From the NCBI GenBank assembly GCA_038087875.1, contig CM075989.1, forward strand, positions 24,616,001 to 24,680,000: 64,000 nt of DNA, in the 5' to 3' direction. The notes below the pieces were generated by a model. The model saw only the letters and a program-made list of their open reading frames with translations. It was not told the origin of the DNA and searched no databases. This DNA comes from Malacoraja senta. Its lineage: Eukaryota. Both the position numbers and the translations under genes were made by a program. Of the stretch, positions 61,519 to 61,968 are shown piece by piece (the first letter of the stretch is position 1; each line of letters starts with the position of its first letter).

Positions 61519-61550
61519 GTCTGAAGAAGGGTCCCGACCCGAAACGTCAC
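61519..61550 (+). ncRNA. Minimal hammerhead-ribozyme-like motif (Penelope terminal repeat), core intact
   Basis: gt-CTGAAGA(61521-27)-A-GGGT[CCCG]ACCC-GAAA(61541-44)-CGTC-ac. Activity is not shown, and stem I is only about 2 bp. Confidence 0.6.
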
Positions 61551-61968
61551 CTATCCATGTTCTCAACAGATGCTGCCTGACCCGCTGAGTTACTCCAGCA
61601 CTCTGTGTCCATTAGAGCGAGCCAGTCTGTTCAGCTCTACCTCGTCCACATTTACAGGTGGGGGTGGAGGGGGGGGTGGGTGAAGGGGGCGGGGGGGGGG
61701 GGTGGAGAGAAAATACATGGAAATACCCCATTCCCACTTAAAGAAAAGCTCCTGTGGTCAGGATGGAACCTGGGTCTGTGGCGCTGTGAGGCAGCAACTC
61801 TACCGCTGCACCACCGTGCTGCATTGGGACGTTTAATCATCGGGTGTGAGACTTGAACCTGCAACACTTTGACTCATAAGTTCACTAGTGATAGGAGCAG
61901 AATTAGGCCATTCGGCCCATCAAGTCTACTCCACCATTCATTCATGGCTGATCTATCTTTCCCTCTCA

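What the first reader, a model, noticed from the sequence alone, without database searches (positions are those of the whole stretch)
61519..61610. Abundant Penelope-derived repeat carries a minimal hammerhead ribozyme core
Seen: one of the most frequent repeats here contains CTGAAGA-A-GGGT[NNCG]RCCC-GAAA-CGT(C/T). The core is intact at 61521-61548 (+), 54984-55011 (+) and about 163-189 (-), nearly intact at about 4312-4339, 13976-14002 and 26443-26467, and mutated in many more copies. The stem II loop varies (CCCG, CTCG, TTCG) while pairing is kept. In longer copies it lies downstream of Penelope GIY-YIG coding remnants. Established: CUGANGA...GAAA...NUH is the hammerhead core; Penelope-like elements carry minimal type I hammerheads with a palindromic helix III that favours dimers; an extra A after A9 is tolerated in a viroid hammerhead. 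Inference: helix III here is reduced to the palindrome ACGU with no loop, so it could only fold with a second copy. Caveat: stem I is only 2-3 bp (GU/AC), so the motif may be vestigial.
Basis: partly seen in the sequence, partly recalled or inferred. Interest (0 to 1): 0.8.

Follow-up and report, generated by a model that had tools for sequence, protein, structure and literature searches.

The report
Penelope jumping-gene minimal hammerhead motif
This is a 90-base leftover end of a very abundant Penelope-like jumping gene carrying an already described minimal "hammerhead" self-cutting RNA motif, which would likely cut only in pairs or with protein help, so this lone copy is likely inert and the find is ordinary.

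Summary
The core lies at 61521-61548; 13 near-matches occur in the window against 0 in 100 shuffles, and the repeat gives 49 hits, with 3 of 25 cores intact. GIY-YIG remnants lie upstream of three longer copies on the same strand; 61519 itself is only a 5'-truncated end. About 160,000 contigs of the best-matching run lay on it. The same compact core occurs in 122 unrelated loci, often just behind a Penelope endonuclease, and there helix I covaries although the search did not ask for it (24 of 26 clusters with 2 or more pairs, 5.4 expected). The architecture (extra A, loop-less ACGU, short helix I) is the published consensus of Cervera and de la Pena 2014. A 2-bp helix I is within the class, so it does not by itself make the motif vestigial. 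Against activity here: no covariation within this family, catalytic G12 decays like any CpG, 0 of 49 copies start at the cut site, and the active dimer is predicted 15-24 kcal/mol above alternative folds. Verdict: a new, very abundant member of a known kind; cleavage untested.

The parts
61517..61609 (+). 5'-truncated, tail-less end (pseudo-LTR fragment) of the Penelope-like family
   Evidence: repeat limits 61517-61613; 81 of 90 identical to the copy at 1588 that follows a GIY-YIG end; no clear target-site duplication
61519..61520 (+). helix I, 5' strand (G2.2, U2.1)
   Evidence: sequence; pairs counted
61521..61528 (+). C3-A9 box CUGAAGA plus the extra A between 9 and 10.1
   Evidence: the extra base is a listed trait of PLE min-HHRs
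61529..61540 (+). helix II, 4 bp with a 4-nt loop
   Evidence: 92% of cells paired in 22 copies, no covariation above shuffles
61541..61548 (+). G12-A13-A14, palindrome ACGU (A15.1 to U16.1) and C17; predicted cut between 61548 and 61549
   Evidence: sequence; numbering from the published consensus; cut not tested
61549..61550 (+). helix I, 3' strand (A1.1, C1.2)
61566..61606 (+). predicted 3' hairpin ending where tail-less copies and tandem units end; possible reverse-transcription start
   Evidence: -12.6 kcal/mol, z -2.0 here but z -0.7 to +0.4 in 4 other copies; loose ends at 61602-61609 and joint at 61606
54977..55098 (+). second copy with intact core (helix I U-A, G-U)
60..196 (-). third copy with intact core, distinct subfamily, with 3' tail
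1337..1684 (+). GIY-YIG C-terminus and stop, about 200 nt pyrimidine-rich spacer, damaged hammerhead copy at 1590
52401..53170 (+). longest remnant: frameshifted GIY-YIG domain (52401 to about 52706), spacer, decayed hammerhead copy at 53048
8321..8903 (-). GIY-YIG C-terminus, spacer and damaged hammerhead at 8419, with two further copies nested inside
7992..8250 (+). GIY-YIG C-terminus and spacer with no hammerhead of its own
38305..38624 (+). tandem array of 63-66-nt units that start at G12 (others at 9858-10094 +, 31263-31452 -, 33394-33511 +)
   Evidence: same joint in all 4 runs laid
61172..61290 (-). older, strongly diverged relative lying head-to-head with the 61519 copy
   Evidence: profile hit 61275-61172; sequence

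Best explanation
The stretch is a 5'-truncated end of a very abundant Penelope-like retrotransposon family and carries that class's minimal type I hammerhead motif, which likely cut RNA only in the source elements (paired through ACGU and likely helped by the element's protein), while lone genomic copies like this one are likely inert. Shown: the motif, its place behind GIY-YIG remnants, tandem and inverted insertions, two classes of 3' end, CpG decay at G12. Inferred: in a tandem transcript two cores would swap strands to make a 4-bp helix III; without help the RNA is predicted to hide the CUGAAGA box in another hairpin; reverse transcription would start near 61606-61609 or about 35-40 nt further on and copy uncut RNA, so insertions keep the whole motif and then decay neutrally. 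Identity as a PLE min-HHR: about 0.95. The number below is for the whole statement, activity in source elements included.
For: Motif far above chance. A profile built only from other organisms' PLE endonucleases gives 5 hits with E<1 in the window, all on the 4 remnants (best 0.0026), against 1 such hit in 30 shuffled windows; 3 of 4 remnants are followed by a copy on the same strand. Atlas feature matches to GIY-YIG clusters (0.91; 0.95 with PF01541 on 17% of members for relative P0006) are leads only. The same core in 122 loci; 23 of 122 have an endonuclease hit and in 19 of 23 the motif follows on the same strand; L001 has RT plus GIY-YIG with the motif 133 nt behind. Helix I, not in the pattern, pairs at position 1 in 26 of 26 clusters and position 2 in 24 of 26, shuffle mean 5.4, 0 of 20000; this family has the U-A, G-C type. 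Non-CpG core columns differ from consensus in 21 of 327 cells against 160 of 794 just 3' of the site (p 0.04). 3' ends: 13 tail-less, 20 tailed of 49. Dimer need, low activity and protein help are reported for other PLEs.
Against: No cleavage was tested. No covariation inside this family. The core is no better kept than the region further 3' (131 of 1475 cells, p 1.0). The active dimer lies 14.6, 23.5 and 20.2 kcal/mol above the monomer ensembles of the three intact copies. Published 2-bp helices I are all G-C; this one has a U-A pair. No Pfam family passes on the window remnants (one weak unrelated hit) and both Pfam hits on L001 are under cut-off. The 26 clusters are not independent. No intact source element was seen. 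Eight of nine Xenopus dimers did not cleave in vitro.
Confidence: 0.6

Rival explanations
1. The motif is a Penelope hammerhead by descent but no longer cuts in this lineage; it survives because subfamilies are recent or because the hairpins serve the reverse transcriptase.
For: No covariation; core no better kept than the 3' region; 0 of 49 copies start in columns 30-45, which hold the cut site; competing folds hide the core; the Anolis element inserts without cleavage in vitro and shows no RNA-seq ends at the site.
Against: Core columns are steadier than the stretch just 3' of the site, which differs between subfamilies (rows 61549-61568); both helix I pairs fit the class pattern; the TTCG subfamily keeps helix II through a U-G pair.
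Confidence: 0.3
2. The 66-nt tandem units that start at G12 supply a second GAAACGUC/AC half-site in cis, so one full core plus one half-site would cut without a second ribozyme.
For: 61606 to 61541 is the best-supported direct joint in all 4 runs; 8 of 49 window hits start at G12; the 3' hairpin closes the loop between the two ACGU in a constrained fold.
Against: That fold is 10 kcal/mol above the ensemble; none of the 4 window arrays has an intact first core; G12 is also the 3' foot of helix II, where a paused reverse transcriptase could jump back; shared mutations in neighbouring units point to later local duplication.
Confidence: 0.07
3. The host has kept some copies as working ribozymes in its own transcripts, for instance this one about 12.5 kb beyond the MEX3 coding exon.
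For: The core here is intact and very many copies exist.
Against: G12 is changed in 10 of 35 window copies and G>A reads 14% in X1 and X2, like a non-core CpG at 13%; 3 intact of 25 needs no selection; the nearest intact same-strand core is 6.5 kb away.
Confidence: 0.03

Closest known systems
Minimal hammerheads (min-HHR) in pseudo-LTRs of metazoan Penelope-like elements (Cervera and de la Pena 2014, PMC4209133)
   Same: CUGANGA plus one extra base, G10.1-C11.1, GAAA-C-G-U-H with no loop III, short helix I, pyrimidine-rich 5' flank, place behind the GIY-YIG end, mostly solitary copies. The Acropora Neptune entry of Fig. S3 has a 4-bp helix II and CGUC; the Culex entry has a 2-bp helix I and CGUC.
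   Different: Helix I is U-A plus G-C, weaker than the published 2-bp cases; helix II is shorter than in the fish entries of that figure; abundance looks far above the 4,000-9,000 motifs given for coelacanth and Xenopus (about 160,000 contigs laid, not a copy count); no cartilaginous fish appears among the rows I read.
Poseidon element PAc of Anolis carolinensis (Frangieh et al. 2024, PMC11167929)
   Same: Hammerhead in the pseudo-LTR, 3' ends in two classes set apart by a tail, insertions made from uncut RNA.
   Different: Other clade; there cleavage was shown and needed the element's protein, here nothing was assayed and no intact ORF was found.
Non-LTR retrozymes of animals (Li, Clavereau and Pollet 2026, bioRxiv 10.64898/2026.07.22.740005)
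   Same: Tandem units derived from PLE pseudo-LTRs; reported from one chondrichthyan genome.
   Different: Retrozyme units each hold a whole hammerhead; the 66-nt units here lack CUGAAGA and helix II.

Membership tests
PLE minimal type I hammerhead | C3-A9 box, G12-A13-A14, A15.1, U16.1, H17 | tested here: met
   (3 of 25 copies whole, this one among them)
PLE minimal type I hammerhead | extra base between 9 and 10.1; G10.1-C11.1 pair | tested here: met
   A in 29 of 30 copies; columns 17-28 paired in 22 of 22
PLE minimal type I hammerhead | palindromic 15.2/16.2 with helix III absent or minute | tested here: met
   ACGU
PLE minimal type I hammerhead | short helix I closing the motif | tested here: met
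   2 bp; class range 1-6, exactly 2 in 7 of 26 clusters; 2-bp cases in print
PLE minimal type I hammerhead | covariation among families within the genome | tested here: inconclusive
   22 window copies: not above shuffles; too few, too close and mostly decayed copies
PLE minimal type I hammerhead | self-cleavage as a dimer or with protein help | not testable with these tools
   all runs offered were contigs, which cannot show RNA ends
Canonical EN+ Penelope-like element | C-terminal GIY-YIG endonuclease upstream of the hammerhead-bearing end | tested here: met
   4 decayed remnants, 3 followed by a copy; each hit weak alone; no Pfam pass
Canonical EN+ Penelope-like element | telomerase-like RT in the same ORF | tested here: inconclusive
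   only a 21-codon piece at 60566-60628(-), E 0.31, not linked to a copy
Canonical EN+ Penelope-like element | partial tandems, inverted 5' pieces, optional 30-40 bp tail | tested here: met
   features as described in PMC8557442
Neptune clade | CX2-5CxxC linker between RT and EN; RT phylogeny | not testable with these tools
   window remnants begin after the linker; comparator L001 has it; Neptune versus Nematis not separated
Non-LTR retrozyme | whole hammerhead in each of two or more tandem units | tested here: not met
   0 of 4 window arrays
Rfam hammerhead families | match to a curated model | tested here: not met
   none at gathering score in the window, none to E 10 in 61400-61700

The most novel reading that the evidence does not exclude
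This family has evolved a 'one-and-a-half' hammerhead: tandem 66-nt units that begin exactly at G12 deliver the substrate strand in cis, held in place by the 3' hairpin, so a single core cuts without a second ribozyme, in a repeat present on the order of 100,000 times in a vertebrate genome and its transcripts.
Probability: 0.07. Interest if true: 0.6.

Novelty: new member of a known kind. Interest (0 to 1): 0.22.

Why it matters
What PLE hammerheads do in vivo is still open (PMC8557442, PMC11167929). A family this abundant, with several subfamilies, a minimal helix I and two recurring junctions tied to the motif (G12 tandem joint, inversion at the 5' edge), would be a handy natural data set for asking whether the motif is still selected. 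The motif and its Penelope link are already known, so it is not a surprise.

Tried and rejected
No whole genome was held, so no genome-wide consensus was built. A pattern for the region 3' of the motif found nothing in viral, genome or metagenome contigs; the core pattern found nothing in viral contigs. Three word-based protein searches with endonuclease remnants found nothing. Of 5 phmmer hits I dropped P0002-P0005 as repetitive proteins scoring by many weak stretches and kept P0006. Pfam gave no passing family on 6 remnants or on P0006. Rfam has no matching hammerhead. No RNA holder listed; all runs were contigs, so RNA ends could not be read. The difference table has no rows before 61540, not even for the loop change at 61534 common in the window, so it says nothing on CUGAAGA or helix II. 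Helix II covariation cannot be read from the 122 loci because the pattern fixed GGG/CCC. A conserved 3' hairpin is weakly supported (z -2.0 in 1 of 5 copies). A splice acceptor just 5' of helix I was considered; the published flank is U-rich anyway, so it is left as a lead. Lunse et al. 2017 was not held; I saw only its citation and a review's summary. Host identity (cartilaginous fish) is recalled from the look of the repeats; calls show only a vertebrate-type MEX3 gene, and a paper search gave nothing to test it with.

Full report
Observation. The described core is at 61521-61548(+). It matches exactly there, at 54984(+) and at 189(-), with 13 matches up to 3 mismatches and none in 100 shuffles. 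The 92-base repeat gives 48 blastn hits and a longer profile 49; 3 of the 25 copies that reach C3 keep the whole core. The 61519 copy is a bare fragment, 61517-61613, with unrelated DNA on both sides.

Link to Penelope. Four decayed endonuclease remnants lie at 1337-1393(+), 7992-8120(+), 8838-8903(-) and 52401-52706(+). None passes Pfam, and three word-based searches failed. The core pattern found 121 metagenome loci and one genome contig. L001 holds an ORF with RT and GIY-YIG (Pfam E 5e-5 and 1e-3, both under cut-off), and the motif lies 133 nt behind it. Of 122 loci 23 have an endonuclease hit, and in 19 of these the motif follows on the same strand; 4 have it only on the other strand, and about 40 loci had short flanks. 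A profile from those pieces gives 5 hits with E<1 in the window, all on the four remnants, against 1 in 30 shuffles. Three remnants are followed by a hammerhead copy about 200-420 nt on, through spacers that resemble each other; in all three the core is damaged. 61519 is 81 of 90 identical to the copy at 1588. Atlas matches to GIY-YIG clusters are leads only.

Insertion pattern. Copies occur as inverted pairs, nested inserts and tandem arrays, and end either near 61602-61609 (13 of 49) or about 35-40 nt further on (20 of 49); 7 end at the tandem joint and 9 elsewhere. These are the PLE features described in PMC8557442 (passages). On 61480-61650, 161,847 contigs of X1 were laid from about 88% of the run, 173,557 of X2, 16,863 of X18 and 3,552 of X21 (4 of 24 listed runs). 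This shows a huge family shared with related organisms but is no copy count. X1 may be the window's own source.

Is it a hammerhead? Within the window the test is weak: helix II is 92% paired and helix I 77%, but covariation is no higher than in shuffles (148 of 500). Across organisms it is strong. Helix I was not in the pattern, yet in 26 clusters (124 of 129 matches had enough flank) pair 1 is A-U or U-A in 26 and pair 2 is Watson-Crick in 24, against 5.4 by shuffling (0 of 20000). The clusters are partly related, so the number overstates independence, but several pair types recur. Lengths run 1-6, with exactly 2 in 7 clusters. This family's U-A, G-C fits. PMC4209133 (main text parts 1-2 of 4, supplement parts 1-2 of 3) gives the same consensus, with the extra base, loop-less CGUC in many animals, a 4-bp helix II in an Acropora Neptune element and 2-bp helices I in Culex, Drosophila and Oikopleura, those being all G-C.

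Selection. Non-CpG core columns differ from consensus in 21 of 327 cells, the 18 columns after the site in 160 of 794 (p 0.04), but the next 34 columns in only 131 of 1475 (p 1.0). G12 sits in a CpG and is changed in 10 of 35 copies. In the laid contigs G>A at 61541 is 14%, 14%, 10.5% and 10.6%, against 13%, 13%, 12% and 9% at non-core 61584. Copies decay neutrally after insertion. That table is silent before 61540.

Mechanism. ACGU cannot close on itself, so helix III needs a second strand (inference from the hammerhead fold). The constrained dimer is 14.6, 23.5 and 20.2 kcal/mol above the monomer ensembles of the three intact copies; short constructs give gaps of 10-13, inside the 2.5-20 range of 19 related loci. 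These energies ignore core contacts. Default folds pair part of the core with the pyrimidine run 3' of the site. No copy starts in the columns holding the cut site (0 of 49), so insertions came from uncut RNA. This parallels PMC11167929 (parts 1-2 of 4): cleavage only with the protein, insertion independent of it, no RNA-seq ends at the site. The 2026 preprint (parts 1-3 of 5; supplements closed) saw cleavage in 1 of 9 Xenopus dimers. I put 0.6 on a motif still active in source elements with inert copies, 0.3 on vestigial.

Two junctions are tied to the motif. The best direct joint in all four runs goes from 61606 back to 61541, which is G12 and not the cut site; window arrays show the same 66-nt unit. 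The simple reading is a reverse transcriptase pausing at the foot of helix II and restarting, with later local duplication. The bolder reading is a half-site supplied in cis; that fold is 10 kcal/mol above the ensemble and none of 4 arrays has an intact first core. Inverted joints from 61518-61521 to 61561-61568 fit a TCTG/CAGA fold-back (inference).

Novelty. Searches for Penelope with hammerhead and shark, with cartilaginous, skate and Penelope, Neptune and pLTR and elasmobranch assemblies listed no paper on this family; I saw these as listings only, apart from the papers named. The preprint reports retrozymes in one chondrichthyan genome, and its closed tables may include it. Lunse et al. 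2017 was not held; I saw a review's summary (PMC6765202, passages). PMC6155905 was seen as passages. The host being a cartilaginous fish is recall, not a result. Earlier notes of this scan held no look-alike sequence and 358 findings with both words. Verdict: real, correctly read, a new member of a known kind; interest 0.22.

Noticed in passing
window 17007-20807 (+): Unbroken 1266-codon LINE ORF with endonuclease, RT and zf-RVT matches in a low-GC island; looks like a young L1-type insertion.
   Followed up: partly
window 47622-49010 (+): MEX3-family coding exon (KH and RING matches); Rfam mir-1905 matches its antisense strand at 47907-47979 just above cut-off.
   Followed up: partly
window 1545-1589, 8420-8465, 29783-29827, 41555-41599, 51603-51647: Long copies have a pyrimidine tract ending in CAG one base before C3's 5' neighbour, like a splice acceptor; in D. 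virilis Penelope an intron ends at helix I. Untested.
   Followed up: no
window 31263-31452 (-): Tandem pair whose two units look like different subfamilies, suggesting a switch between templates.
   Followed up: partly
window 8760-8840 (-): One copy is inserted in the endonuclease remnant of another, flanked by an 11-base duplication.
   Followed up: partly
window 60566-60628 (-): 21-codon piece resembling the PLE RT motif of L001, E 0.31.
   Followed up: partly
window 38309 (+), 44525 (-), 37540 (-): Three copies share a 3-base loss in the CUGAAGA box; a subfamily that spread without a core, or repeated slippage.
   Followed up: no
window 52300-52395 (+): The longest remnant starts beside a TG/TA microsatellite, the target bias described for Neptune-like elements.
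   Followed up: no
L122 3001-3028 (-): The same motif, close to a metagenome cluster, in a contig filed as a bacterial genome: likely host DNA contamination.
   Followed up: no
window 258-560, 21313-21634, 28255-28555 and about 12 more: A second abundant repeat of about 300 bp, SINE-like; ARAGORN finds no tRNA.
   Followed up: no
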